64,000 bases of DNA, taken from UHGV virus genome UHGV-0371537; one strand, 5' to 3'. The position numbers and the translations under genes are program-made. Of the stretch, positions 13,577 through 58,025 are shown piece after piece. The stretch is from a virus. The notes beneath the pieces are model-generated. The model saw only the letters and a list, made by a program, of their open reading frames with translations. It was not told where the DNA came from and did no database searches. The number at the start of each line of letters is the position of its first letter. The stretch's first letter is position 1.

Positions 13577-15565
13577 ATGGCCACCCCATCTTTCTTAAAT
13601 TTCCTTGAAGAGTCTAAACAATTAGACGAAGCGTTCAACTCCGCTCCGTATGAGCTGACCATGGGTAAGAAGAACGCAGGCGATGTGTTCTTCACCTTCA
13701 TCGACGAAGATGAAAAGGAATACCGTATTCAGTTCTATACCCCACAGGGGCTGGGCAAGAACGTTCGTCAGGTCTTCATCGGCCAGAAGCGCGGCTCCGT
13801 CTACCCTGATGCCATCGCTCGCTTCAAAAACCCAATGCGCGTCATCGCCTCCATGATCGAAGCGACCAAGCAGTTCCTGGCGACCCCTCTGGGCAAGACC
13901 ATCGATGGTTATGCTGTCAACTTCTCTAAGAAAGCGCTGGAACGCGGGATGACCCTGATTCCTAAGATCATCCGCCAGTCCGGCCTGAAGCAGAAACTGA
14001 ACGTCATGGACCTGACTTACGCGCCTGTCCCTGACCGTGGTTATGTGTGGTTGGTCCGCAAGGGCAAAGATCCGGCTCAGGTATTCGACGGTCCGAAGAT
14101 GCAGGGCATCACCTGGGATGATCCAGACAAGGTCGGTGACGTTCCGGTTCAGAACAATACCCCAGATGTGGGGACTTCATCTTCTGTTGATGATTCCAAC
14201 GGATGGAAATTAACTTCAAACGGGGATCAGCCTATGTTGATCTGGGTTGGCAAAGAGAGAGGCCGCATGAACACGGCAAATATCGCTCCCCACTACAATG
14301 AGCCAGGCGTGTATGTTGGCGCATACATGAATGAGAAATCTGTGCGTGGGCAAAGTGCTGATTTCATTGCTCGTCAGTTGAAATTACCGCAAGTCCCTAT
14401 CAGTATCCTGAATGATTTCACCACGGCGTCCACAAAATTTTGGAAAGGTTCTCAGCAGAAGTCTGCGCCAGCTGACTCCAACACCACTATTGGTGCTCGG
14501 GGTGTGGGAACTGGGTCTGGTTCTTCTGAAATCGAAATCAACCGCGACTGGTACAACAGCTCAGACACTGGTCTGGTGTTGAAGAGCGGGCGCGACCCGA
14601 TTCGCGGAAACTACACCCGCTTGATGAGCGGTTCGAGAGAAGTAGCCACATTCTATGGCTATGATTTTGACAAATACCCAGACGGAACTGAAGTATCTTG
14701 GAATATGAAGCGCGGCTTCACCAACCAAGACTTGGTCGGTGCGTCCATGACCAAACAGAAGAAAGGCATGTACGATCAGTACACTTTCAAGAAAGGTGCT
14801 CAGTTAATTCTGGTGGTGGACGTTGATACCAGCAACAATACCAACACCCTCAGTTCTAACGACCTAAAAATCCCGCGCAACGCCGAAGTATTCGGTGAAA
14901 CTGGTAGTGGTTTCTCCGTTCGGTGGGCTGTCAATTTCCCCGAAACGGGAAAATATGCCGGTACTTCTATGATAACCAACGTAACCTATTATCATGACAA
15001 AGGCAAAGTTGCATTCACCCCAATTGTCTCTCAGAAAGGGCGTACCCTGAACAATCCGAAGACATATGAACTTCCTTTGAACAAAGATTTGGTCCAGAGT
15101 GTGATTGATGAGATTTCATCAAAAATGGTATATCTTTCCAGAAACCTCCAACAGTTGAAAAGTCAGACATACAACCCAAACCAGGTTTTCTTGAATGATA
15201 TAACCATCACGGATAAAGGTGAAGTGATTTGGAACGATTACAACTTGTCTGACGGCAAAGTTACACAAATTATGCTGTCCATGATAAGCGCAGAAAATAA
15301 ACGCTTGGAGAAAGTGACAAACAGGCCGGATATCACATTACCAAAGAAACAAGCCGAAGTAGTAGAATTTATAAACCGGATGATTGATATTGATCTCGGA
15401 CCTTATTTGAGAGAACCCAAAAAACGTGATGTGGTATTATTCGACTCTTCTGAATTGTCGATAAACCAACTCAACAACATAGAACGCCTGGGAAGAGAAA
15501 CAGGAAAATGGTCTCTTCAGTCAAACGGCGGTATGGGTCATGCACTATTTCTGAATGTTTGGTGA
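13577..15565 (+). CDS. large hypothetical protein (662 aa)
   Basis: Long ORF with AGGAGAA SD; no motif recognised. Confidence 0.55.
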   Translation: MATPSFLNFLEESKQLDEAFNSAPYELTMGKKNAGDVFFTFIDEDEKEYRIQFYTPQGLGKNVRQVFIGQKRGSVYPDAIARFKNPMRVIASMIEATKQFLATPLGKTIDGYAVNFSKKALERGMTLIPKIIRQSGLKQKLNVMDLTYAPVPDRGYVWLVRKGKDPAQVFDGPKMQGITWDDPDKVGDVPVQNNTPDVGTSSSVDDSNGWKLTSNGDQPMLIWVGKERGRMNTANIAPHYNEPGVYVGAYMNEKSVRGQSADFIARQLKLPQVPISILNDFTTASTKFWKGSQQKSAPADSNTTIGARGVGTGSGSSEIEINRDWYNSSDTGLVLKSGRDPIRGNYTRLMSGSREVATFYGYDFDKYPDGTEVSWNMKRGFTNQDLVGASMTKQKKGMYDQYTFKKGAQLILVVDVDTSNNTNTLSSNDLKIPRNAEVFGETGSGFSVRWAVNFPETGKYAGTSMITNVTYYHDKGKVAFTPIVSQKGRTLNNPKTYELPLNKDLVQSVIDEISSKMVYLSRNLQQLKSQTYNPNQVFLNDITITDKGEVIWNDYNLSDGKVTQIMLSMISAENKRLEKVTNRPDITLPKKQAEVVEFINRMIDIDLGPYLREPKKRDVVLFDSSELSINQLNNIERLGRETGKWSLQSNGGMGHALFLNVW

Positions 15566-15637
15566 AACAAGCTGAACTTGAACAGAATAAAGCCCCTCCG
15601 GGGGCTAATTACATCTAAATCCCCGAGGAGAGATCCA

Positions 15638-16210
15638 ATGAAACCTTTTATCGAATATTTTAAAGAGCAAGCTGCACAGCCTCAGACCCATGCTGGTGTC
15701 CAGGGTAAGACCGTATCCATCACCAAGCAAGCTGACGGCACCCAGTGGTGTTCCGGCGCTACCGTGACCCAGATCACTCCTGACAATCAGGCGGATGTCT
15801 ACAACCTGGAGTTAACCAACGGCAACACCATCAAGGTGAAGCTGACCCCAGACCAGACTCACGGTATCTCCCAAGGTCAGGAAGTTGTTGCTGTCCACGA
15901 TGGCTTCGAATTCTTCTTCTTCGGCAAGTCCGCCGACAAAGGCCAGGTGACTGAAGCCTATGCCCAGGAACTGGCGAACATGGACAAGATGATCGGTAAA
16001 GCACTGGGTGTTGGCAAGTCCCGCAAGAGTGGTCGCACTGAGTTCGAATACTCTGGCATCCCTGGCATCGGCAAGGCGATCACCGTGAACTTCGGCGGCG
16101 AAGATGACCCATATGTGATCGTCACCTGCAACGGCAAAGAGCAGGACATCAGCAAGGGTAAAAACCTGGCTGCTGACATTGCCAAGTTCCTCGGTGTTAA
16201 GCCTGTGTAG
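15638..16210 (+). CDS. hypothetical protein
   Basis: ATG 15638 after GAGGAGAGA; followed by a bidirectional terminator. Confidence 0.5.
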   Translation: MKPFIEYFKEQAAQPQTHAGVQGKTVSITKQADGTQWCSGATVTQITPDNQADVYNLELTNGNTIKVKLTPDQTHGISQGQEVVAVHDGFEFFFFGKSADKGQVTEAYAQELANMDKMIGKALGVGKSRKSGRTEFEYSGIPGIGKAITVNFGGEDDPYVIVTCNGKEQDISKGKNLAADIAKFLGVKPV

Positions 16211-38606: not shown

Positions 38607-38636
38607 TTTAAGTTCAGAATCTGTTCAATAGATGAA

Positions 38637-38668
38637 GGGGCTGCTATAATAGCAGCTCCTTTTGTTTA
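38637..38668 (+). terminator. rho-independent terminator with TATAAT in the hairpin
   Basis: GGGCTGCTAT-A-ATAGCAGCTCC hairpin followed by TTTTGTTTATT; TGcTATAAT (extended -10-like) inside the stem. Confidence 0.6.
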
Positions 38669-38680
38669 TTGGAGCAGTCT

Positions 38681-39346
38681 ATGTCCTACTCCCTCAAGGG
38701 GTTGCTCAAGCGCCCCGTCCACACATTCATTAAACCGCCTGTCGTAAAGGGGATATACCCGGCACGAGGGCAAATCTATTACGTCAAAGGCTCGAATGGT
38801 AGCGGTAAATCTACCGTGCCTTCCCAGCTGGCGGAGAGGGATCCTCAGGCGTATGTCGTGACGCATGATAGCAAGATCATGCTGACGGTCTGTCCGTCAT
38901 TCAACGTGGTCTGCATTGGCAAATATGATAAGTCAAAGTCCAAGGGGGTTGATTCTCTGAAGGATACTGAACAAATGCTATTCGCCCTGAGCATCGCCGA
39001 TCTACCTGAATATCAGGTATACGATGTGATCTTTGAAGGCATCATCCCGTCAACACTGCTGAGTTCCTGGATTCCCCGCCTGACGCGCCCACCGCGCGAA
39101 CTGGTTGTCCTCTTCATGGACACCCCTCTTGAAACCTGCATCGCCCGTGTTAAATCACGTAACGGCGGTGCGGACTTCAATGAGAGCCTCGTGGTAGAGA
39201 AGTGGGGGCGCGTTCAAGACCACCGCCAGCGCCATAAGGGCTTGTTCCCTACGGTGGCCGCAGGTATGATGAAGTCTCACGGTCTAACAGTAGACCAGGC
39301 TGTAATGGCATTCCTCTGTCGTGATTTTGGGGATATTGATGACTAA
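38681..39346 (+). CDS. P-loop kinase (candidate nucleotide/nucleic-acid kinase of the base-modification module)
   Basis: Walker A GSNGSGKST near N-terminus; ATG 38681 with GGAG SD; adjacent to TS-family and dNMP kinase genes. Confidence 0.55.
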   Translation: MSYSLKGLLKRPVHTFIKPPVVKGIYPARGQIYYVKGSNGSGKSTVPSQLAERDPQAYVVTHDSKIMLTVCPSFNVVCIGKYDKSKSKGVDSLKDTEQMLFALSIADLPEYQVYDVIFEGIIPSTLLSSWIPRLTRPPRELVVLFMDTPLETCIARVKSRNGGADFNESLVVEKWGRVQDHRQRHKGLFPTVAAGMMKSHGLTVDQAVMAFLCRDFGDIDD

Positions 39347-39911
39347 GAAATTGGTCTATGGGGTTGGTCACAACGACATGCCCTATGGCACAGCTACGGT
39401 AAATGGAAAGGCAACCGACGAATATTCTGCTTGGTCGGGGTTGTTACAAAGGGCGTATGATCCAAAATACCATGCCAGAAATCCGACTTATGTTGGTTGC
39501 TCTGTCGTGGAAGAGTGGCATTTTCGATCGAAATTCGTTAAGTGGTTTGGTGTGAACTACGTTAAAGGATGGTGTCTAGACAAGGATATTTTGAATCCTG
39601 GAAACAAAGTTTATGGCCCAGACACATGCATCTATGTGCCCGTTTGGATCAATACATTTGCCAATGATAGCGGCGCAATAAGGGGTGGTCTCCCAATAGG
39701 AGTTTCATTAAACAAGACAACCGGAAAATATCTTTCTCAGTGTAAATCCGGTGGTAAAGTGATAAATCTGGGTTATTACGACGACCCCAAAGAAGCGCAC
39801 GAGGTTTGGTTGAGATTTAAGCTAAACCTGGTTTTGGAAAGGAAGAAAGACATGGATAGTATAGACCATCGTATTTATCCAAATCTGGTTCATATTTTGC
39901 AAAGTAAATGA
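39339..39911 (+). CDS. homing-endonuclease-like protein with AP2-type DNA-binding domain
   Basis: AP2-like segment TGKYLSQCKSGGKVINLGYYDDPKEAHEVW; N-terminal region resembles the HNH-associated module of phage homing endonucleases. Confidence 0.45.
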   Translation: MTKKLVYGVGHNDMPYGTATVNGKATDEYSAWSGLLQRAYDPKYHARNPTYVGCSVVEEWHFRSKFVKWFGVNYVKGWCLDKDILNPGNKVYGPDTCIYVPVWINTFANDSGAIRGGLPIGVSLNKTTGKYLSQCKSGGKVINLGYYDDPKEAHEVWLRFKLNLVLERKKDMDSIDHRIYPNLVHILQSK

Positions 39912-39927
39912 TTATTGGAGACCAATT

Positions 39928-40974
39928 ATGGAAATCAAAGCAATTAACAACAATGACATGCTGAAAAAGGCTGTCTTGGCTATCCGCGAATACGGGATTG
40001 AGTCAGACCCTGGCAACGCGGAGATTAACACGGACGGCACCCGCTTCCTTGATGGTGTGACGATTACCGTGGATGATATCCGTGACCGCTGGCTGTCTGT
40101 TGAAGGTCGTAACTCATCGGCTATCGCTGCCATCGGCGAGACCTTCTGGGTTCTGTCCGGGCGCGATGACGTTCGCTTCCTGTCCCGTGTGTTGCCCCGC
40201 GCCGCCAACTTTTCCGACAACGGCCACACATGGCGAGCCGCTTATGGTCCGCGTCTGTACGCCCATGGCCAGCTGGATAGCGTCATCAACCGCCTGCGTA
40301 AGAACCCAAACACTCGCCAGGCGTACCTCACCATCTATGACCCGGCTCTGGATTCAGATGCTGGCCTGGCGAAGTTCAGCGAGAGTGGCGAAGCGAAGAC
40401 TAAAGACATGGTGTGTAACCTGGCTCTGTTGTTCGCCATCGTTGAAGGTCGTCTGAACCTGACGGTCATCAACCGCTCGCAAGATGTTCTGTGGGGTATG
40501 AGTTCAATCAATTTCATTGAGTTCTCTATCCTTCAGGAAGTGATTGCTCAGGTGCTGGATGTTGATGTCGGTCAGTACAAGCTCTTCTCCAACAATCTTC
40601 ATTACTACAACAATGAAGTCAGCCAGAAGCAGCTGGGCAAGATCACGAAGGACACCAAAGTAGAAGCTGGGTTCATCAACTCCATGATTCACTTCAAGAA
40701 CGTGACCAACCAGAACCATATCCGGAATCTGTTCACTGGTGTGCTTCATCATTGTGATATCGGTAGCCCTTGGGAAACTGTGGTCGCCCACCTGAAGGAA
40801 TATGATGCTGATCGCGGCCTGATTGTACAGATGGCATACTGCCTGTATTGTAAGCTGAACGACAAGCTCATCAACATGAACCTGATTCAGGATCATGGTC
40901 TGAACATCGCGCTCACCCATTCCCCGGTTGACCGCAAGATCGTTGATCCTAAGTTCCTGGAAGGTGCAGCATGA
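39928..40974 (+). CDS. thymidylate synthase-family enzyme (candidate pyrimidine hydroxymethylase; non-canonical motifs)
   Basis: TS-fold motifs: TFWVLSGRDDVRFL (cf. ELLWFLQGDTNIAYL), catalytic Cys in MVCN (PCH in ThyA), GRLNLTVINRSQDV (cf. GKLSCQLYQRSCDV); about 100-aa C-terminal extension. Confidence 0.7.
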   Translation: MEIKAINNNDMLKKAVLAIREYGIESDPGNAEINTDGTRFLDGVTITVDDIRDRWLSVEGRNSSAIAAIGETFWVLSGRDDVRFLSRVLPRAANFSDNGHTWRAAYGPRLYAHGQLDSVINRLRKNPNTRQAYLTIYDPALDSDAGLAKFSESGEAKTKDMVCNLALLFAIVEGRLNLTVINRSQDVLWGMSSINFIEFSILQEVIAQVLDVDVGQYKLFSNNLHYYNNEVSQKQLGKITKDTKVEAGFINSMIHFKNVTNQNHIRNLFTGVLHHCDIGSPWETVVAHLKEYDADRGLIVQMAYCLYCKLNDKLINMNLIQDHGLNIALTHSPVDRKIVDPKFLEGAA

Positions 40975-41540
40975 TGTACCCAAACCTTGAATTCTTTACG
41001 GGGCGCAAGCGCTCTGGTAAGGACTTCTGTTTGGAGTCCCTCATCAGCTATCACCATCTACAGGGCGATATGGATATCCAACGCCTTTCGTTCTCGGACG
41101 AACTGCGCCGGGTTGCCAACTACATCTACCCATGGCTGCCAGCGGAGGTAGAGGATGCCGTGAAGGACGTTCCTTACGTCCACCCTGATAACCCCAAGGG
41201 CTTAACCCCAAGGCAGATCTGGCTCCATCTCGGCAGCGATACGGGCTTGCGTTACGTACAGCCTGATCTGTTCCTGGCGTTCTTCAAGCGCTTCCAGCTT
41301 CCTCTGGTAGAGCAGAACCCTCACGTCCATTATATCGTGAGTGATCTGCGCACCCCTCAGGAATATGAATGGGCGCTGAGTACGAAATGTCCTATCACCC
41401 GCATTTCAAAGGCCGACCGCGCTGGTATCATAGAGGACGATATAGAGGCTTTCATTGACAAGATGGAAGTCGACTACGAATTCCTCAATCCATTTGATGG
41501 TTGGGCACCGTTCGTTAAATTCTACGGAGAACGTAAATGA
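40971..41540 (+). CDS. deoxynucleoside monophosphate kinase, T4 gp1-like
   Basis: P-loop GRKRSGKD near N-terminus as in gp1 (GxKRSGKD); overlaps upstream stop (ATGA). Confidence 0.6.
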   Translation: MMYPNLEFFTGRKRSGKDFCLESLISYHHLQGDMDIQRLSFSDELRRVANYIYPWLPAEVEDAVKDVPYVHPDNPKGLTPRQIWLHLGSDTGLRYVQPDLFLAFFKRFQLPLVEQNPHVHYIVSDLRTPQEYEWALSTKCPITRISKADRAGIIEDDIEAFIDKMEVDYEFLNPFDGWAPFVKFYGERK

Positions 41541-42076
41541 TCACAGCAGGGCATATCAAAAGCCTGCTCGAACTCCAAAAGGCCACTAATGTGGCCTACT
41601 TTGGCGACGAGTGGCGAAACCACTGGACTGAAGTCGCGGTGGTGAACTCTGTATACCGCGAGTGGGCTGAGTTCCTTGACGAAGTATCCAGCAGCTGGAA
41701 GATATATGGCAGCGACCAGAAATGGCACCAGGTGAACGCGATTTACGAATTGGTGGACGTTGTTCACTTCATGCTGTCGCGTTTGCTACTGTCCAATCAG
41801 GCCATAGAAATTGAAATGCGTGACGAATACTTTGGTGTGGAAATTACTAAAGTCAATAACTTCAATGTCGTCACCACTATGTTCACAACGTTCATGACAG
41901 CACCGACCTGTCAGAATCTGGCGTACTTTATTGCGTATGCTTGTCCCTATTTGGGTATCGACTTTGAAACCTACATGCTGGCACACAAGCGCAAGAACGA
42001 TCGCAATCGTCTGCGTGCTGCTGGCGGTGCGGATTACGATAAGTCCGCCGAAACCCCTCTGACCCTGGAGTTCTAA
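41537..42076 (+). CDS. all-alpha NTP pyrophosphohydrolase (gp56 dCTPase/MazG-like)
   Basis: ELVDVVHFML motif and acidic EWAEFLDEV region resemble gp56/MazG-type pyrophosphatases. Confidence 0.5.
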   Translation: MITAGHIKSLLELQKATNVAYFGDEWRNHWTEVAVVNSVYREWAEFLDEVSSSWKIYGSDQKWHQVNAIYELVDVVHFMLSRLLLSNQAIEIEMRDEYFGVEITKVNNFNVVTTMFTTFMTAPTCQNLAYFIAYACPYLGIDFETYMLAHKRKNDRNRLRAAGGADYDKSAETPLTLEF

Positions 42077-42618
42077 TGTTTACAGTCGTCGTTTCATATC
42101 ATGCAGACAACGCGGCGAACGCATCCGCTAATTTCACCGAGCACATCATCGGCGGCGGCCATAATGTATTCCTCACCGAATACACCAGGCCTGTTAAACC
42201 GGGCGACGGTCTTTCGGCGACTGTTACACACAAGATCGCCAGCGAAGAACCTGAATCTCTGTTCCGGATGATCGAAGAGTATGCAGGCGGCGGGGTAGAA
42301 ATACCCGAAGCGCTGCTGGACGTGTACTTCGAAGGAGCGATCTATTACATCCACGCCATACCGAAGGATGTATCTACGGAGCAGTTGATGTATATCCTGA
42401 ACATTGCGCTGAATTGTGCCTGCATCAACCGCACGAACTACAACAATCTGCGCAATATGTACCTAACCGACCGACATAATGAAGCGGCTTCGCCTGTTGA
42501 GATGATGTCTCTGAAGAGCATCCAAGAGGCGGTCAACATTTTGTCCCAGAAGGTTATGGGTGTAGAATTATTAACGACGATCAACAATAAAGAGGAAGTG
42601 AAATGGCCAGTTCATTAA
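42076..42618 (+). CDS. hypothetical protein
   Basis: ORF in operon-like array. Confidence 0.4.
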   Translation: MFTVVVSYHADNAANASANFTEHIIGGGHNVFLTEYTRPVKPGDGLSATVTHKIASEEPESLFRMIEEYAGGGVEIPEALLDVYFEGAIYYIHAIPKDVSTEQLMYILNIALNCACINRTNYNNLRNMYLTDRHNEAASPVEMMSLKSIQEAVNILSQKVMGVELLTTINNKEEVKWPVH

Positions 42619-43688
42619 TGGACCGCATGCTGAAGGTTGCCAAGAAACATGACGACCAGGCTTCAGTGCTGTCTCAATCCGAAGCCCTGGAACCAAAGAT
42701 CATTTGTTCAACTGGTATTCCCCTGATTGACATCGCCTGGTCTGGACGCGTCGATGGTGGGCTGATCTCCGGCATCAAGATGATGGTGGGCGACTCCCGT
42801 ACATTTAAAACGATGTTTGGTCTGGTAGACGTCAAGGCGTATATGGACAAGTTCTCTGATGCCCTGTGTATCTTCGCGGACTCCGAGAAGGGTGCCAACG
42901 CCGACTACTGGACGTCCATGGGGATCGATATGGACCGCGTACTGTACGTGCCGATTGACAACGTTGAGCAGACCAAGATCCGCCTGCTGCAAATCCTTCA
43001 AGAAGTTAAGAAGGGTGACCATGTCATCATCTTTATTGACTCTATCAGTCAGCTTCCCTCCACCAAGGAAGTTGAAGATGCGATCAAAGGCAATGACACC
43101 CAAGACATGACCCGCGCCCGTGCCCTCAACAGCTTCTGGCGCGTTATGACTCCTGAAATCAACAGCAAAGAACTCGTGTGTGTTTGGATCAACTCATATT
43201 ACGACGAGATCGGAAACCAGTATGCCGAGCCTAACATCAAAGGCGGCAAGCAGGGCTTCTTATCCTCCAACCTGATCTGGTTCATCACCCGTTCGCAGGT
43301 GAAGGAAGACAAAGATCTGCTAGGTTGGAACTTCAACATCGGCATCATGAAAGGCCGCCATGTGAAAGAGAAAGCCAAGCTCCCTGTGACAGTGCTGTAC
43401 GACGGTGGTATCGACCGTTGGAGTGGCTTGCTTGAGATCGCTCGTGCTCTGGGTTACGTTGATATGCCGTCTTCCGGCTGGTATGTGCGTACAGCCAAGG
43501 GTGGCTTCGATCCTGAGAAGGAAAAGAAATACCAGAAGCGTCAGATGGATGATGATTTCTGGTATCCACTTCTGGAGAATGCCGACTTCGCCGATGACGT
43601 GAAGAAGATGTTTGGTGTTTCTAACGGTACTGTTATGCCTGCAAACATGCTGGAGCAGATGGACCATGTTATCAACACATCCGAGTGA
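42603..43688 (+). CDS. uvsX: recombinase UvsX (RecA-like)
   Basis: RecA-fold layout with P-loop region GLISGIKMMVGDSRTFKT; 361 aa; adjacent to helicase and ssDNA-binding genes. Confidence 0.8.
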   Translation: MASSLMDRMLKVAKKHDDQASVLSQSEALEPKIICSTGIPLIDIAWSGRVDGGLISGIKMMVGDSRTFKTMFGLVDVKAYMDKFSDALCIFADSEKGANADYWTSMGIDMDRVLYVPIDNVEQTKIRLLQILQEVKKGDHVIIFIDSISQLPSTKEVEDAIKGNDTQDMTRARALNSFWRVMTPEINSKELVCVWINSYYDEIGNQYAEPNIKGGKQGFLSSNLIWFITRSQVKEDKDLLGWNFNIGIMKGRHVKEKAKLPVTVLYDGGIDRWSGLLEIARALGYVDMPSSGWYVRTAKGGFDPEKEKKYQKRQMDDDFWYPLLENADFADDVKKMFGVSNGTVMPANMLEQMDHVINTSE

Positions 43689-43995
43689 CAATGGAGGGGG
43701 AGGCAACTCCCCCAATAACTACACACTCATCGACCTTGGTCCTGATCAGCTGGCGATCGTCAAGATCACTTCTGGCAAATTCCGTGGTGTTCAATTCCGG
43801 TTCGGCAAGGTTGCCATCAACGAAGTGGACGGTGAACCCCGTTTGTCTTTCGTGACTGATATATTGAAGAAACCATTGCGTCTGATGTTTGTGAATTTGA
43901 AAGAAAATGACTTGTTCACTGAGGTGTCAGGGGATATCCTTGTAGACCTTATGCAGCGTAATGCTCAGGAATACAATAAATTTTTGGTGGGGTAG
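43666..43995 (+). CDS. hypothetical protein (start inside 3' end of uvsX in another frame)
   Basis: Protein-like frame with ATG 43666 preceded by GGAG at 9-nt spacing; ends at helicase start. Confidence 0.35.
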   Translation: MLSTHPSDNGGGGNSPNNYTLIDLGPDQLAIVKITSGKFRGVQFRFGKVAINEVDGEPRLSFVTDILKKPLRLMFVNLKENDLFTEVSGDILVDLMQRNAQEYNKFLVG

Positions 43996-45425
43996 TGCCA
44001 ATGTTACTCGAATCTGTCGTGCTTTCACAGTTGATTTACAATGAAGATTACCAAAGAAAGATCCTGCCGTATCTGAAAGCCGATTATTTTGACAACGAAG
44101 GCGAAAAGGTCATATTTGGCCTGATTGACAGTTATGCCGCAGAGTACAATGCCCGCCCGTCTATCGAAGCGCTGTCTATCATTCTTGAACGGACAAAGCT
44201 GAACGAATATGTGTTTGACCAGGCAGTATCTGCCCTGGAGAACATCAACGACAACACCTTCAATGAAGAGTGGCTGGCGAAGGAAACGGAGACCTGGGCG
44301 CGGCAAAAGGCCGTACACAATGCTATCAAGACCGCCGTCAACATCTATGGGGACGAAAAGCGCAAGGATGAGATGAACAACATCCCGACCTTGTTGCAGG
44401 AAGCCCTGGCTATCCGGTTCGATTCATACCTCGGACACATCTATTGGGAGATGGCGGCTGAGCAGTATGACCATATGAACTCCAACGAGGCCAAGATCCC
44501 GTTTGCTGTTGAGATATTCAACAAGGCGACCCGTGGTGGTGTTGGCAAGAAGACCCTGAACATCGTGACAGGTGCGATCAACGCAGGTAAGACAACAACT
44601 CTGATCGACCTGACTGCAGGATATGCTGAGCAGGGTTTAAACGTCTTTGTATTCACGCTCGAAGTGGCCGAGAACGTCTGGCGTCATCGCCTTGATGCCC
44701 GTATCATGCGCAGAGACTTTGAGTCCTTGGAGAAGCTCCCAAGGCACGAGTACATCGCCACGATAGAGAAGCTCCGACACAAACAGGACGGCTCTCCCAA
44801 GGGTGATATCGTCATCAAGGAATATCCGTCTGGCGCAGGCCATACAGGTTTGTTCCGCCGCGACATCCTTGAGTACATTCAGGCAACCGGGCGCTCCCCA
44901 GATGTTATCGTTATCGACTATCTTGGTGAAGCTGCTTCCTCGCGCTTGCCTGCTCACCTGATGCAGAACACGAACGTCTATTACACGTCTGTGGCTCGTG
45001 AGTTTCGCGCTCTGGGTTTCGAATTTGACGTTCCTGTTTGGACTGGTATGCAGTTCAATCGCGAGAACCAGAACACAACAGATGGTAGTATCAGTGACCT
45101 GGCAGATGCTATCGGTATCCCAAAGGTCGCAGATTTCATCATGGCATTTTATGCTCCTGATGAATTGGCGGCGGTCAAGAAAGCCCGAGCCTCAATCCTC
45201 AAGAACCGTTATGCCAACAAGCAGAAGCTCAAGTCATTCCTGTTTGGTATGGACCAAGACAAGCAGATCCTGTTTGATCTTGACTGGAACGAAGTGAAGA
45301 AGGACCTGACTGAAACCGAGGCGAAGTATGTTGAGAATGTCCATATCAAACATGACCTCAACAAGTCCGGGTCCACTGTCAGTGATGAGCAGAAAGCCCA
45401 AACAGTTAATAACTGGAAATTCTAA
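43995..45425 (+). CDS. replicative DNA helicase, gp41/DnaB family
   Basis: Walker A GAINAGKTT, DnaB-like C-terminal domain, 476 aa. Confidence 0.8.
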   Translation: MPMLLESVVLSQLIYNEDYQRKILPYLKADYFDNEGEKVIFGLIDSYAAEYNARPSIEALSIILERTKLNEYVFDQAVSALENINDNTFNEEWLAKETETWARQKAVHNAIKTAVNIYGDEKRKDEMNNIPTLLQEALAIRFDSYLGHIYWEMAAEQYDHMNSNEAKIPFAVEIFNKATRGGVGKKTLNIVTGAINAGKTTTLIDLTAGYAEQGLNVFVFTLEVAENVWRHRLDARIMRRDFESLEKLPRHEYIATIEKLRHKQDGSPKGDIVIKEYPSGAGHTGLFRRDILEYIQATGRSPDVIVIDYLGEAASSRLPAHLMQNTNVYYTSVAREFRALGFEFDVPVWTGMQFNRENQNTTDGSISDLADAIGIPKVADFIMAFYAPDELAAVKKARASILKNRYANKQKLKSFLFGMDQDKQILFDLDWNEVKKDLTETEAKYVENVHIKHDLNKSGSTVSDEQKAQTVNNWKF

Positions 45426-57515: not shown

Positions 57516-58025
57516 TTACTTGTCAGGGTTCACTAAAACAGGGTTAGATACCAGTTCGCCGTTCTTCACAGAATGCTGAACCACAGCAAACTGATCGACC
57601 ATGCGATACACTTCAATCCCAGCAGCCAACATTTCAATAATACCGTCTGTGATCCGGTACGGTACATTGTATATGACCTTACCAATCTTGCCACTGTCGA
57701 TAATACGACGGGTGCATTCCGGACACGGACTGTGGGTGACAAACATCACCAGACCACACCAGTCTTCAGCCCACTGGGGGAGTTTGTTTAAGGCATTCTC
57801 CTCAGCGTGGATAACGCCCACCGATACCAGTTGACCGTCCACTTCTTTCTCGCAAACATTTGGAGCGCCGGGGGCTGTCCCGTTCCAGCCGATAGATAGG
57901 GGCTGGTCAACACGTGGGTCAACGATAACACAGCCGACCTTCAGGCGCTGGGCATAGCTGGACAGAGCGTATGCATGAGCAGAGCGCATATGCGCAAACA
58001 TCATACGGGGTTTGATAGCCATCAC
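57516..58025 (-). CDS. dCMP deaminase
   Basis: Zinc-binding motifs HAEENAL and PCPEC (cytidine/dCMP deaminase signature). Confidence 0.8.
   Translation of the reverse strand: MMAIKPRMMFAHMRSAHAYALSSYAQRLKVGCVIVDPRVDQPLSIGWNGTAPGAPNVCEKEVDGQLVSVGVIHAEENALNKLPQWAEDWCGLVMFVTHSPCPECTRRIIDSGKIGKVIYNVPYRITDGIIEMLAAGIEVYRMVDQFAVVQHSVKNGELVSNPVLVNPDK

What the first reader, a model, noticed from the sequence alone, without database searches (positions are those of the whole stretch)
38681..42076. Pyrimidine-modification module: P-loop kinase, non-canonical TS-family enzyme, dNMP kinase, dCTPase-like enzyme
Four consecutive genes form a nucleotide-modification cassette, split by a homing-endonuclease-like insertion. 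The thymidylate-synthase-family protein keeps the fold motifs (TFWVLSGRDDVRFL; GRLNLTVINRSQDV) but differs from ThyA at the active site: Cys is followed by Asn (MVCN instead of PCH), only one Arg sits where ThyA has the RR phosphate-binding pair, the residue aligned to ThyA Asn177 is shifted, and there is a ~100-aa C-terminal extension. It is flanked by a gp1-like dNMP kinase (GRKRSGKD) and a gp56/MazG-like pyrophosphatase (ELVDVVHFML), with a P-loop kinase (GSNGSGKST) upstream and a dCMP deaminase at 57516..58025. This matches phages that replace C or T with a hydroxymethylated or further decorated base; a P-loop kinase beside a TS-like hydroxymethylase is the arrangement reported for post-replicative thymidine hypermodification. 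The exact base is not predictable from sequence.
Basis: partly seen in the sequence, partly recalled or inferred. Interest (0 to 1): 0.75.

Follow-up and report, generated by a model that had tools for sequence, protein, structure and literature searches.

The report
Known phage thymidine-hypermodification gene cluster
This is the well-studied gene set that ViI-like (Ackermannviridae) phages use to replace thymine with a hydroxymethyl-uracil-derived base, so it is real but already explained; the only less familiar detail is a swapped-out variable segment in one of its enzymes.

Summary

The window comes from an Aglimvirinae/Agtrevirus-like Ackermannviridae phage, about 90% nucleotide-identical to pSal-SNUABM-02, CAU_YEP3, Gloob and SKML-39. 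The cluster is the syntenic orthologue of Salmonella phage ViI orf67-orf62:
- **P-loop protein:** a 5-hmdU DNA kinase (PF18748, E=1.7e-106), 86% identical to ViI gp67, which has been shown to phosphorylate 5-hmdU in DNA.
- **TS-like protein:** a dUMP hydroxymethylase. Its best structural match is MilA.
- **The other two:** a gp1-type dNMP kinase and a dimeric-dUTPase/gp56-type pyrophosphatase.

The target is thymine, not cytosine. The expected base is 5-NeOmdU, because close relatives carry ViI's serine transferase and PLP decarboxylase, which lie outside this window.

This inference was published for CBA120, ViI and AG3 in 2011 and resolved chemically in 2018-2021, so novelty is low.

Side observations: the pyrophosphatase has a hypervariable 55-residue central cassette, the hydroxymethylase exists as two alleles that cross genera, and the HNH gene is a precise 585-bp insertion.

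The parts
38634..38662 (+). Terminator-like hairpin (13-bp stem followed by a T run) that closes the upstream gene and marks the 5' edge of the module
   Evidence: scan; sequence. It is a pattern match only; function is not shown.
38681..39346 (+). 5-hydroxymethyl-dU DNA kinase (5-HMUDK), 221 aa, Walker A GSNGSGKST. It phosphorylates the 5-hydroxymethyl group of hmdU already in DNA.
   Evidence: PF18748 E=1.7e-106, 354 bits against a cut-off of 27. It is 86% identical over its full length to ViI gp67 YP_004327432, which is shown to be active in PMC8989533.
39339..39911 (+). Free-standing HNH/AP2 homing-endonuclease gene, 190 aa. The mobile insertion spans 39341-39925. It is not part of the pathway.
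   Evidence: phrog_953 'HNH endonuclease' E=2.4e-78 and a weak AP2 hit. The insertion point is precise. It is 100% and 99.5% identical to the copies in pSal-SNUABM-02 and CAU_YEP3. A 67%-identical relative sits immediately next to the TS-family gene in phage SS9 (coordinates), on the side where the kinase lies in the other genomes. A low-divergence tract runs 39236-39966.
39928..40974 (+). Thymidylate-synthase-family dUMP hydroxymethylase, 348 aa, with catalytic Cys163, Asn195 and a helical C-terminal extension at about aa 240-340
   Evidence: PF00303 E=4e-16. It scores far below all TS equivalog cut-offs. Best PHROG is 3676, then 5131, the family of SPO1 gp29 and M6-like enzymes. Signature residues are shared with SPO1 gp29. 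The AF2 model has pLDDT 94, and its best PDB match over the full length is the CMP hydroxymethylase MilA. It is 76.5% identical to ViI orf66.
40971..41540 (+). dNMP kinase, 189 aa, P-loop GRKRSGKD. It is expected to convert 5-hmdUMP to the diphosphate.
   Evidence: phrog_139 E=5.7e-47, the same PHROG as T4 gp1. It shares the P-loop with T4 gp1 and is 92% identical to ViI orf65. It does not match Pfam DNMK.
41537..42076 (+). All-alpha (dimeric-dUTPase / T4 gp56 type) dNTP pyrophosphatase, 179 aa, with metal-binding residues Glu42, Glu45, Glu71 and Asp74
   Evidence: PF08761 E=3.7e-9, 37.5 bits against a cut-off of 22.9. phrog_173 is shared with T4 gp56. Alignment to C. jejuni dUTPase 1w2y. The AF2 model (pLDDT 90) matches dimeric dUTPases. 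The catalytic residues are invariant in 44 homologues.
41777..41941 (+). Hypervariable central cassette of the pyrophosphatase (aa 81-135), lying between invariant blocks
   Evidence: Nucleotide identity to five relatives falls to 38-75% here, against 85-98% in the bins on either side. See also the entropy profile and discrete cassette types. The best phage-database match for the whole protein is 72%. T4 gp56 lacks this segment.
42076..42618 (+). Phage ACT-like domain protein, 180 aa. It is co-oriented with and overlaps the pyrophosphatase stop codon. Its role is unknown and possibly regulatory.
   Evidence: PF24021 E=8.8e-80. It is syntenic with ViI orf62 at 58% identity.
57516..58025 (-). 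dCMP deaminase, which supplies dUMP to the hydroxymethylase
   Evidence: PF00383 E=6.4e-16, phrog_174, and 65% identity to the ViI dCMP deaminase.

Best explanation
This is the front end of the Ackermannviridae thymidine-hypermodification pathway, orthologous gene for gene to Salmonella phage ViI orf67-orf62.

**Before replication (inferred from homology):**
- The dCMP deaminase (57.5 kb) and the dimeric-dUTPase-type pyrophosphatase supply dUMP. The pyrophosphatase probably also destroys dTTP.
- The TS-family enzyme uses Cys163 and methylene-tetrahydrofolate to make 5-hydroxymethyl-dUMP rather than dTMP.
- The gp1-type dNMP kinase makes the diphosphate, host NDP kinase makes 5-hmdUTP, and the phage polymerase incorporates it in place of T.

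**After replication:**
- The 5-hmdU DNA kinase phosphorylates the hydroxymethyl group in DNA. This is shown for the 86%-identical ViI gp67.
- Enzymes encoded outside this window then finish the base. These are a serine:DNA transferase (ViI gp247 type) and a PLP decarboxylase (ViI gp226 type), and the product at a fraction of T positions is 5-(2-aminoethoxy)methyl-dU (5-NeOmdU). This step is inferred from their presence in all close relatives.

The modified base blocks restriction enzymes. The HNH/AP2 gene is a selfish insertion and not part of the pathway.
For: - **Phage identity:** Ackermannviridae, 89-93% nucleotide identity to Agtrevirus-like phages.
- **Synteny and identity to ViI:** kinase 86%, TS-like 76.5%, dNMP kinase 92%, pyrophosphatase 71%, ACT-like 58%, dCMP deaminase 65%.
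- **Kinase:** PF18748 at 354 bits. ViI gp67 (YP_004327432) produced 5-phosphomethyl-dU in vitro (PMC8989533).
- **TS-like enzyme:**
  - It fails the TS equivalog cut-offs, 57 bits against 327.
  - It shares Cys-Asn, Arg-Gln and the loop insertion before the conserved Asn with SPO1 gp29, an established dUMP hydroxymethylase, and with M6-like enzymes.
  - Its second-best PHROG is the SPO1/M6 family.
  - The best sequence and fold match in the PDB is the hydroxymethylase MilA, including the C-terminal domain.
- **Pyrophosphatase:** PF08761, an intact Glu/Glu/Glu/Asp tetrad and a dimeric-dUTPase fold.
- **Downstream enzymes:** found in relatives at 88-92% identity.
- **Literature:**
  - The same inference was made for CBA120, ViI and AG3, and CBA120 does not incorporate 3H-thymidine (PMC3184105).
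  - 5-NeOmdU was measured in ViI (PMC5889632) and a Taipeivirus (bioRxiv 10.64898/2026.05.19.726188).
  - 5-HMUDK is stated to co-associate with dUMP hydroxymethyltransferase.
Against: - None of the enzymes of this particular phage has been assayed.
- As far as I found, the ViI-family hydroxymethylase, dNMP kinase and pyrophosphatase have themselves only been assigned by homology.
- The transferase, decarboxylase, second kinase and gp160-type protein are not in the 64-kb window. Their presence in this genome is assumed from relatives.
- In the papers read here, 5-NeOmdU was reported only for Kuttervirus and Taipeivirus, not for an Aglimvirinae phage.
- The pyrophosphatase substrate range (dUTP, dTTP, dCTP) is unknown, and its central region is unlike that of any characterised enzyme.
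- How the roughly 60-85% of T positions end up as plain thymidine is unexplained.
Confidence: 0.9

Rival explanations
1. The pathway makes 5-hmdU DNA and phosphorylates it, but the final base in this phage is not 5-NeOmdU. A different group might be attached, or only 5-hmdU might be left, because the downstream enzymes differ or are missing in the unseen part of the genome.
For: The transferase and decarboxylase genes are not in the window. The papers read here report no chemical analysis of an Aglimvirinae phage. M6-like phages show that swapping downstream genes changes the base (PMC5889632).
Against: ViI gp247 and gp226 orthologues are present at 88-92% identity in Agtrevirus, Limestonevirus and other relatives: 377 and 344 records, including Gloob, P46FS4, EspM4VN and the Dickeya phages. 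The review PMC11721090 states that the modification genes are conserved across the family.
Confidence: 0.07
2. The TS-like protein is an ordinary thymidylate synthase, as most GenBank records label it, and the neighbouring genes are generic nucleotide-salvage enzymes. The DNA would then be canonical.
For: The annotation 'thymidylate synthase' appears in nearly all related records. The protein matches PF00303.
Against: - It scores 19-58 bits against TS equivalog cut-offs of 108-427.
- His147 and Arg127 are replaced, and the ThyA C-terminal tail is absent.
- It is closer to hydroxymethylases in sequence and fold.
- It sits next to a dedicated 5-hmdU DNA kinase.
- Relatives contain modified T and exclude labelled thymidine.
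Confidence: 0.02
3. It is a T4-style cytosine-modification module: a dCMP hydroxymethylase plus a dCTPase plus an hm-dCMP kinase.
For: T4 has the analogous trio gp42, gp56 and gp1, and T4 gene 42 occupies the same position upstream of uvsX and gene 41. The pyrophosphatase and the kinase share PHROGs with gp56 and gp1.
Against: - Asn195 aligns with ThyA Asn177 and is invariant in 65 homologues. From my own knowledge, not tested here, T4 gp42 uses Asp179 at that position. The MAFFT alignment placed gp42 Tyr180 in that column, with Asp179 one residue before it.
- A phage dCMP deaminase would destroy the substrate of such a pathway.
- The adjacent DNA kinase family is specific for 5-hmdU.
- CBA120 does not substitute hmdC (PMC3184105).
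Confidence: 0.01

Closest known systems
Salmonella phage ViI (Vi01) orf67-orf62 and the ViI 5-NeOmdU pathway (Lee et al. 2018, 2021)
   Same: Same gene order: kinase, TS-like, dNMP kinase, pyrophosphatase, ACT-like, uvsX, gene 41. Amino-acid identity is 58-92%. The kinase belongs to the same Pfam family, PF18748.
   Different: - This phage is from a different subfamily (Aglimvirinae-like rather than Kuttervirus).
- It has an HNH/AP2 gene inserted between the kinase and the TS-like gene.
- It carries the other allele of the TS-like gene (76.5%).
- It has a different central cassette in the pyrophosphatase.
Bacillus phage SPO1 gp29 and Pseudomonas M6/YuA-like dUMP hydroxymethylases
   Same: TS fold with Cys-Asn, Arg-Gln (SPO1 only), a one-residue insertion before the conserved Asn, and a long C-terminal extension (351-383 aa). 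There are cross-hits between PHROG 3676 and PHROG 5131.
   Different: Only 32-34% identity, and they fall in separate PHROGs. SPO1 stops at 5-hmdU and has no DNA kinase.
T4 gp42 / gp1 / gp56 (the hydroxymethyl-dC pathway)
   Same: The same three-enzyme logic: hydroxymethylase, dNMP kinase, and a pyrophosphatase that removes the canonical dNTP. The position upstream of uvsX and gene 41 is the same. The kinase and the pyrophosphatase share PHROGs 139 and 173 with their T4 counterparts.
   Different: - The target base is U/T, not C.
- Pairwise similarity to gp1 and gp56 is confined to motifs.
- The kinase does not match Pfam DNMK.
- The DNA-level enzyme is a kinase, not a glucosyltransferase.
MilA, CMP 5-hydroxymethylase (PDB 5b6d, 5jnh)
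   Same: It is the best PDB match by sequence (E=4e-17) and by fold over the full length, including the helical C-terminal domain (TM 0.70-0.74 against 0.52-0.57 for thymidylate synthases).
   Different: About 20% identity. MilA acts on a ribonucleotide cytosine substrate in bacterial antibiotic biosynthesis.
Dimeric dUTPases of Staphylococcus aureus phages (phiDI, phiO11, phiNM1; PDB 5myi, 5myd, 5mil)
   Same: These are the top fold matches for the pyrophosphatase model. They have the same layout: conserved catalytic blocks flanking a hypervariable central region of about 50-60 residues ('domain VI') that exists as discrete allelic types (PMC5608427).
   Different: About 17% identity. In S. 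aureus the variable region modulates binding to the SaPI repressor Stl, and no partner is known here. The substrate here may include dTTP.
Delftia phage PhiW-14 (alpha-putrescinylthymine)
   Same: It has an hmdUMP synthase most closely related to the Ackermannviridae enzymes, dTTPase activity in infected cells, and a 5-HMUDK (PMC5977210). Two Delftia phage records match this pyrophosphatase.
   Different: The final base is different (putrescine attached through an N-C bond), and there is no nucleotide-level similarity.

Membership tests
5-hmdU DNA kinase (Pfam PF18748 HMUDK_HMUD1; ViI gp67 type) | Profile match above the curated cut-off over the full domain | tested here: met
   354.5 bits against a cut-off of 27, covering residues 18-212 of the ORF and positions 1-195 of the 196-position profile
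5-hmdU DNA kinase (Pfam PF18748 HMUDK_HMUD1; ViI gp67 type) | P-loop Walker A motif and orthology to a biochemically tested member | tested here: met
   GSNGSGKST. It is 86% identical over 220 aa to ViI gp67, whose activity is reported in PMC8989533.
5-hmdU DNA kinase (Pfam PF18748 HMUDK_HMUD1; ViI gp67 type) | ATP-dependent phosphorylation of 5-hmdU in duplex DNA | not testable with these tools
   Requires an enzyme assay on SP8 or another hmdU-containing DNA
dUMP hydroxymethylase (TS superfamily, SPO1 gp29 / M6 clade) | TS fold with the catalytic Cys and the pyrimidine-binding Arg, Asp, His and Tyr residues | tested here: met
   PF00303. Cys163, Arg183, Asp186, His225 and Tyr227 align to ThyA Cys146, Arg166, Asp169, His207 and Tyr209 and are invariant in 65 homologues.
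dUMP hydroxymethylase (TS superfamily, SPO1 gp29 / M6 clade) | Asn at the ThyA Asn177 position (uracil rather than cytosine) | tested here: met
   Asn195 is invariant
dUMP hydroxymethylase (TS superfamily, SPO1 gp29 / M6 clade) | Clade signatures: Cys-Asn dyad, one-residue loop insertion, long helical C-terminal extension replacing the ThyA tail | tested here: met
   These are shared with SPO1 gp29 and the M6-like enzyme. The modelled extension superposes on MilA.
dUMP hydroxymethylase (TS superfamily, SPO1 gp29 / M6 clade) | The product is 5-hmdUMP, formed by water addition with no hydride transfer | not testable with these tools
   Requires an enzyme assay
Canonical thymidylate synthase ThyA | Score above the NCBIfam equivalog cut-offs | tested here: not met
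   The best score is 57.6 bits against a cut-off of 327, and all seven TS models fall far below threshold
Canonical thymidylate synthase ThyA | Pro-Cys-His active-site triplet, Arg126-Arg127 pair, and the C-terminal tail that closes over folate | tested here: not met
   Val-Cys-Asn, Arg-Gln, and an unrelated C-terminal region of about 110 aa
T4 gp42-type dCMP hydroxymethylase | An acidic residue at the specificity position, and membership of the gp42 family | tested here: not met
   Asn195. gp42's own PHROG 160 is only the third-best hit (8e-26, against 4.8e-185 for PHROG 3676).
T4 gp1 dNMP kinase (Pfam PF21448 DNMK) | Match to the DNMK profile | tested here: not met
   No hit at E<=0.01, whereas T4 gp1 scores 3e-107. 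phmmer against the PDB found nothing.
T4 gp1 dNMP kinase (Pfam PF21448 DNMK) | Remote-homology family and P-loop G-x-K-R-S-G-K-D | tested here: met
   Both proteins fall in phrog_139, at 5.7e-47 and 1.8e-65. The P-loops align.
Dimeric dUTPase / all-alpha NTP pyrophosphatase (PF08761; T4 gp56) | Profile match above cut-off, the fold, and the Glu-x-x-Glu ... Glu-x-x-Asp metal site | tested here: met
   37.5 bits against a cut-off of 22.9. Glu42, Glu45, Glu71 and Asp74 align to the corresponding motif residues of C. jejuni dUTPase and are invariant. The fold matches PDB 5myi, 2cic and 1w2y. phrog_173 is shared with gp56.
Dimeric dUTPase / all-alpha NTP pyrophosphatase (PF08761; T4 gp56) | Substrate specificity (dUTP, dTTP or dCTP) | not testable with these tools
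   A dTTPase role is inferred from CBA120 labelling and from PhiW-14 enzymology
Complete ViI-type 5-NeOmdU pathway | Presence of an amino-acid:DNA transferase (PF18724) and a PLP decarboxylase | tested here: inconclusive
   Both are absent from the 64-kb window. In ViI they lie 100 kb or more away. Relatives carry them at 88-92% identity.

The most novel reading that the evidence does not exclude
The pyrophosphatase is more than a housekeeping dUTPase/dTTPase. Its 55-residue central cassette (aa 81-135) is exchanged among otherwise near-identical Ackermannviridae genomes. This resembles 'domain VI' of staphylococcal phage dimeric dUTPases, whose variation tunes recognition by the SaPI repressor Stl.

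By analogy, this segment would be a surface that some enterobacterial satellite or defence system senses, or that the phage uses for signalling. Phages would escape by swapping cassettes. The two cross-genus alleles of the hydroxymethylase C-terminal domain could reflect the same pressure, or homing-endonuclease-driven exchange.
Probability: 0.15. Interest if true: 0.55.

Novelty: already known. Interest (0 to 1): 0.18.

Why it matters
The cluster explains why DNA of this phage family resists many restriction enzymes, which matters for sequencing, cloning and phage-therapy use. However, it adds no new biology. Kutter et al. drew the same conclusion for CBA120, ViI and AG3 in 2011, and Lee et al. 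resolved the chemistry and enzymology in 2018 and 2021.

**Annotation value.** The 5-hmdU DNA kinase is still widely mislabelled 'terminase small subunit' or 'thymidylate kinase', and the hydroxymethylase is labelled 'thymidylate synthase'. Both labels hide the modification.

**Modest research value.** The side observations show that this conserved metabolic operon is a recombination hot spot. These are the cassette-like hypervariable core of the pyrophosphatase, the two hydroxymethylase alleles that cross genus boundaries, and a recurrently used homing-endonuclease site at the kinase/hydroxymethylase junction. They may point to an unrecognised host or satellite interaction.

Tried and rejected
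- **ViI downstream enzymes in the window:** tblastn with ViI gp160, gp226, gp243, gp247, both MazG-like proteins and the QueC-like protein found nothing. The post-kinase steps therefore cannot be read from this window.
- **dNMP kinase:** phmmer against the PDB gave no hit, even at E<=1. Pfam gave only a sub-threshold phosphomevalonate-kinase hit. NCBIfam gave nothing. The 'gp1-like' label therefore rests on PHROG 139 and the P-loop only.
- **DNA kinase:** phmmer against the PDB gave only generic P-loop noise.
- **Promoter scan:** sigma-70-like sites were no more frequent than in shuffled sequence (16 against 11.8 +/- 3.4), and none sits between the terminator and the kinase start. Regulation is unresolved.
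- **Literature:** the EcoSal review of hypermodified DNA (PMC11163837) is not held.
- **Canonical thymidylate synthase and T4-style dCMP hydroxymethylase:** both considered and rejected; see the rival explanations.
- **Point-mutation drift for the pyrophosphatase centre:** rejected, because flanks 93-98% identical cannot coexist with a 47%-identical core without recombination.

Full report
**1. What is there**

The ORF list shows a run of co-oriented, overlapping genes on the + strand:

| Coordinates | Product |
|---|---|
| 38681-39346 | P-loop protein (GSNGSGKST) |
| 39339-39911 | HNH/AP2 endonuclease |
| 39928-40974 | TS-family protein, 348 aa |
| 40971-41540 | Kinase (GRKRSGKD) |
| 41537-42076 | Pyrophosphatase (ELVDVVHFML) |
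| 42076-42618 | ACT-like protein |
| 42603-43688 | UvsX |
| 43995-45425 | gp41-type helicase |

A strong terminator-like hairpin at 38634-38662 precedes the first gene. The ATG at 38681 has a GGAG 7 nt upstream. The dCMP deaminase at 57516-58025 (-) is real.

**2. Where the window comes from**

Megablast of three parts of the window finds about 270-280 Ackermannviridae genomes. The best matches are Aglimvirinae/Agtrevirus-like phages at 89-93% identity: pSal-SNUABM-02, CAU_YEP3, Gloob, ChubbyThor, MK-13, SKML-39 and P46FS4. None reaches 95%, so this is a new species-level relative of a very well sampled family.

**3. Orthology to ViI**

The annotated ViI genome has the same order on its minus strand: orf67, thyA (orf66), dnk (orf65), dUTPase (orf63), orf62, uvsX, gene 41.

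tblastn of the ViI proteins against the window gives:

| Protein | Identity to ViI |
|---|---|
| Kinase | 86% |
| TS-like | 76.5% |
| dNMP kinase | 92% |
| Pyrophosphatase | 71% |
| ACT-like | 58% |
| dCMP deaminase | 65% |

ViI gp67 is YP_004327432. Lee et al. list it as a 5-hmdU DNA kinase and show that it produces the 5-phosphomethyl-dU nucleotide (PMC8989533).

ViI gp160, gp226, gp243 and gp247 have no counterpart in the window. In ViI they lie at 87, 140, 149 and 151 kb, so their absence from a 64-kb window is expected.

**4. The individual proteins**

*Kinase.* It matches PF18748 '5-hmdU DNA kinase' at 354 bits against a cut-off of 27. The refutation condition 'generic nucleotide kinase' is therefore not met.

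*TS-like protein.*
- It matches PF00303, but scores 19-58 bits against NCBIfam thymidylate-synthase equivalog cut-offs of 108-427.
- The same alignment shows those features are shared with the established dUMP hydroxymethylases:
  - Cys-Asn: SPO1 PCN, M6-like PCN.
  - Arg-Gln: SPO1.
  - The extra residue in the Gly-to-Asn loop: both.
  - Length of 346-383 aa.
- Asn195 aligns with ThyA Asn177 and is invariant in 65 homologues. This points to a uracil substrate.
- The best PHROG is the family-specific 3676. The second is 5131, which holds SPO1 gp29 and the M6-like enzyme. T4 gp42's PHROG 160 is third.
- By sequence, the best solved structure is the CMP hydroxymethylase MilA (E=4e-17).
- An AlphaFold model built on 65 homologues (pLDDT 94) matches MilA over about 350 columns with TM 0.70-0.74. 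Thymidylate synthases match only the roughly 260-residue core, with TM 0.52-0.57. The C-terminal 'extension' is therefore a five-helix domain typical of hydroxymethylases.

*dNMP kinase.* It shares PHROG 139 and the G-x-K-R-S-G-K-D loop with T4 gp1. It does not match Pfam DNMK or any PDB chain. It works like gp1 but is not a member of that Pfam family.

*Pyrophosphatase.*
- It matches PF08761 above the cut-off and shares PHROG 173 with T4 gp56.
- It aligns to C. jejuni dUTPase so that Glu42, Glu45, Glu71 and Asp74 fall on that enzyme's Glu-x-x-Glu and Glu-x-x-Asp motifs. These four residues are invariant in 44 homologues.
- Its model (pLDDT 90) matches dimeric dUTPases.

**5. Mechanism**

The literature describes exactly this module. 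dCMP deaminase supplies dUMP. A TS homologue makes 5-hmdUMP. A phage dNMP kinase phosphorylates it. A dTTPase removes dTTP. 5-hmdU fully replaces T during replication and is then modified in DNA, starting with the 5-hmdU DNA kinase (PMC8989533).

In ViI, gp247 then transfers serine through its hydroxyl group and gp226 decarboxylates it to give 5-NeOmdU.

[quoted passage not shown] CBA120 does not incorporate 3H-thymidine (PMC3184105). In PhiW-14, dTTPase activity and an hmdUMP synthase were shown biochemically (PMC5977210).

In this chain, only the kinase step rests on direct biochemistry of a close orthologue. The other steps are homology-based inference.

**6. Which base**

tblastn with ViI gp247 and gp226 finds full-length orthologues at 88-92% identity in Agtrevirus, Limestonevirus, Enterobacter and Escherichia members of the family. 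5-NeOmdU has been measured in ViI and CBA120 (about 40% of T; PMC11721090) and in a Taipeivirus (about 16%; bioRxiv 2026).

The expected base is therefore 5-NeOmdU. One caveat remains: in the papers read here no Aglimvirinae phage was analysed chemically, and the relevant genes are outside the window.

**7. Comparison and novelty**

The closest system is ViI's own cluster, and the window's cluster is a member of it. The logic parallels T4 gp42, gp1 and gp56, and T4 gene 42 occupies the same position upstream of uvsX, gene 40 and gene 41. The target base and the DNA-level enzyme differ.

Nothing in the cluster departs from what is published, so I rate it 'already known'.

**8. Things noticed along the way**

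*(a) Hypervariable pyrophosphatase core.* The pyrophosphatase is at most 72% identical to any of 351 phage records, although the neighbouring dNMP kinase is 98-99.5% identical to close relatives.
- The divergence is confined to aa 81-135, between the invariant blocks YELVDVVHFML and ETYMLAHKRKNDRNRLRAAGG.
- Nucleotide identity there drops to 38-75%, against 85-98% in the bins on either side.
- The segment occurs as discrete cassette types, and T4 gp56 lacks it.
- One 94%-identical cluster exists in metagenome assemblies (P0112).
- This layout is the one described for dimeric dUTPases of S. aureus phages. There, a variable central region of 50-60 residues ('domain VI') modulates de-repression of SaPI islands (PMC5608427). 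Those proteins are the top structural matches.

*(b) Two hydroxymethylase alleles.* The hydroxymethylase exists as two alleles about 76% identical to each other.
- The window's allele is 95-99% identical to those of ChubbyThor, Ag3, LIMEstone1 and the Kuttervirus SFP10.
- ViI, pSal-SNUABM-02, CAU_YEP3 and the Klebsiella phages have the other allele.
- UvsX, by contrast, is only 77% identical between the window and SFP10. The allele distribution therefore cuts across genera.
- Divergence is concentrated in the C-terminal domain.

*(c) The HNH/AP2 insertion.* The HNH/AP2 gene is a precise 585-bp insertion, which carries the GGAG that lies upstream of the hydroxymethylase start codon.
- It sits within a low-divergence tract, 39236-39966, with 9 differences from pSal-SNUABM-02. 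The sequence on both sides is much more divergent.
- It is the only copy seen next to the window's allele type.
- A 67%-identical relative lies about 20 bp from the TS-family gene in phage SS9, on the side where the kinase lies in the other genomes.

*(d) Misannotation.* The kinase is labelled 'terminase small subunit' (PHROG 800, RefSeq) or 'thymidylate kinase' in many records.

**9. Verdict**

The system is already known, and interest is low.

The most novel reading not excluded is that the pyrophosphatase cassette is an interaction surface under diversifying exchange. I give that about 15%.

Noticed in passing
window 41777-41941 (aa 81-135 of the pyrophosphatase, 41537-42076): A hypervariable, cassette-like central segment lies between invariant catalytic blocks. 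The best match for the whole protein among 351 phage records is 72%, while the flanking genes are 96-99% identical. The layout parallels 'domain VI' of S. aureus phage dimeric dUTPases, which are also the top fold matches.
   Followed up: partly
window 39928-40974, especially 40600-40900: The dUMP hydroxymethylase occurs as two alleles about 76% identical, and their distribution cuts across genera. The window's allele is 96.6% identical to that of the Kuttervirus SFP10 but 75% identical to that of its close relative pSal-SNUABM-02. Divergence is concentrated in the C-terminal helical domain.
   Followed up: partly
window 39236-39966 (insertion 39341-39925): The HNH/AP2 gene is a precise 585-bp insertion at a junction where the kinase stop and hydroxymethylase start codons otherwise overlap. 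It sits in a 98.8%-identical tract shared with pSal-SNUABM-02 and CAU_YEP3, which is much more conserved than the surrounding sequence. A 67%-identical relative lies about 20 bp from the TS-family gene in phage SS9. This suggests a recurrent homing site and a short co-conversion tract.
   Followed up: partly
window 38681-39346 and related GenBank/RefSeq records: The 5-hmdU DNA kinase is systematically mislabelled. PHROG 800 and many RefSeq records call it 'terminase small subunit', and others call it 'thymidylate kinase', 'polynucleotide kinase' or 'hypothetical'. The hydroxymethylase is almost always called 'thymidylate synthase'.
   Followed up: yes
window 42076-42618: A phage ACT-like domain protein (PF24021) is translationally coupled to the pyrophosphatase and conserved at this position in ViI (58% identity). 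ACT domains usually bind small molecules such as amino acids, and the pathway uses serine. No function is known.
   Followed up: no
window 39339-39911: The endonuclease matches HNH PHROGs strongly, but no Pfam HNH model matches at E<=0.01. By eye (recalled consensus, not tested with a tool), the presumed nuclease motif reads L-D-K-D...N...N where the usual HNH catalytic His would sit. Whether it is an active nuclease is not established.
   Followed up: no
window 38634-38662: A 13-bp-stem, GC-rich hairpin with a T run lies 19 nt upstream of the kinase start codon, and no sigma-70-like promoter lies between them. How the operon is transcribed (read-through or a phage-specific promoter) is unclear.
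   Followed up: no
window about 58-62 kb compared with L003 (ViI) 15375-16037: The ViI RefSeq record annotates a QueC-like queuosine-biosynthesis protein between dexA and the dCMP deaminase. tblastn finds no counterpart in the window, which has other small ORFs of unknown function there.
   Followed up: no
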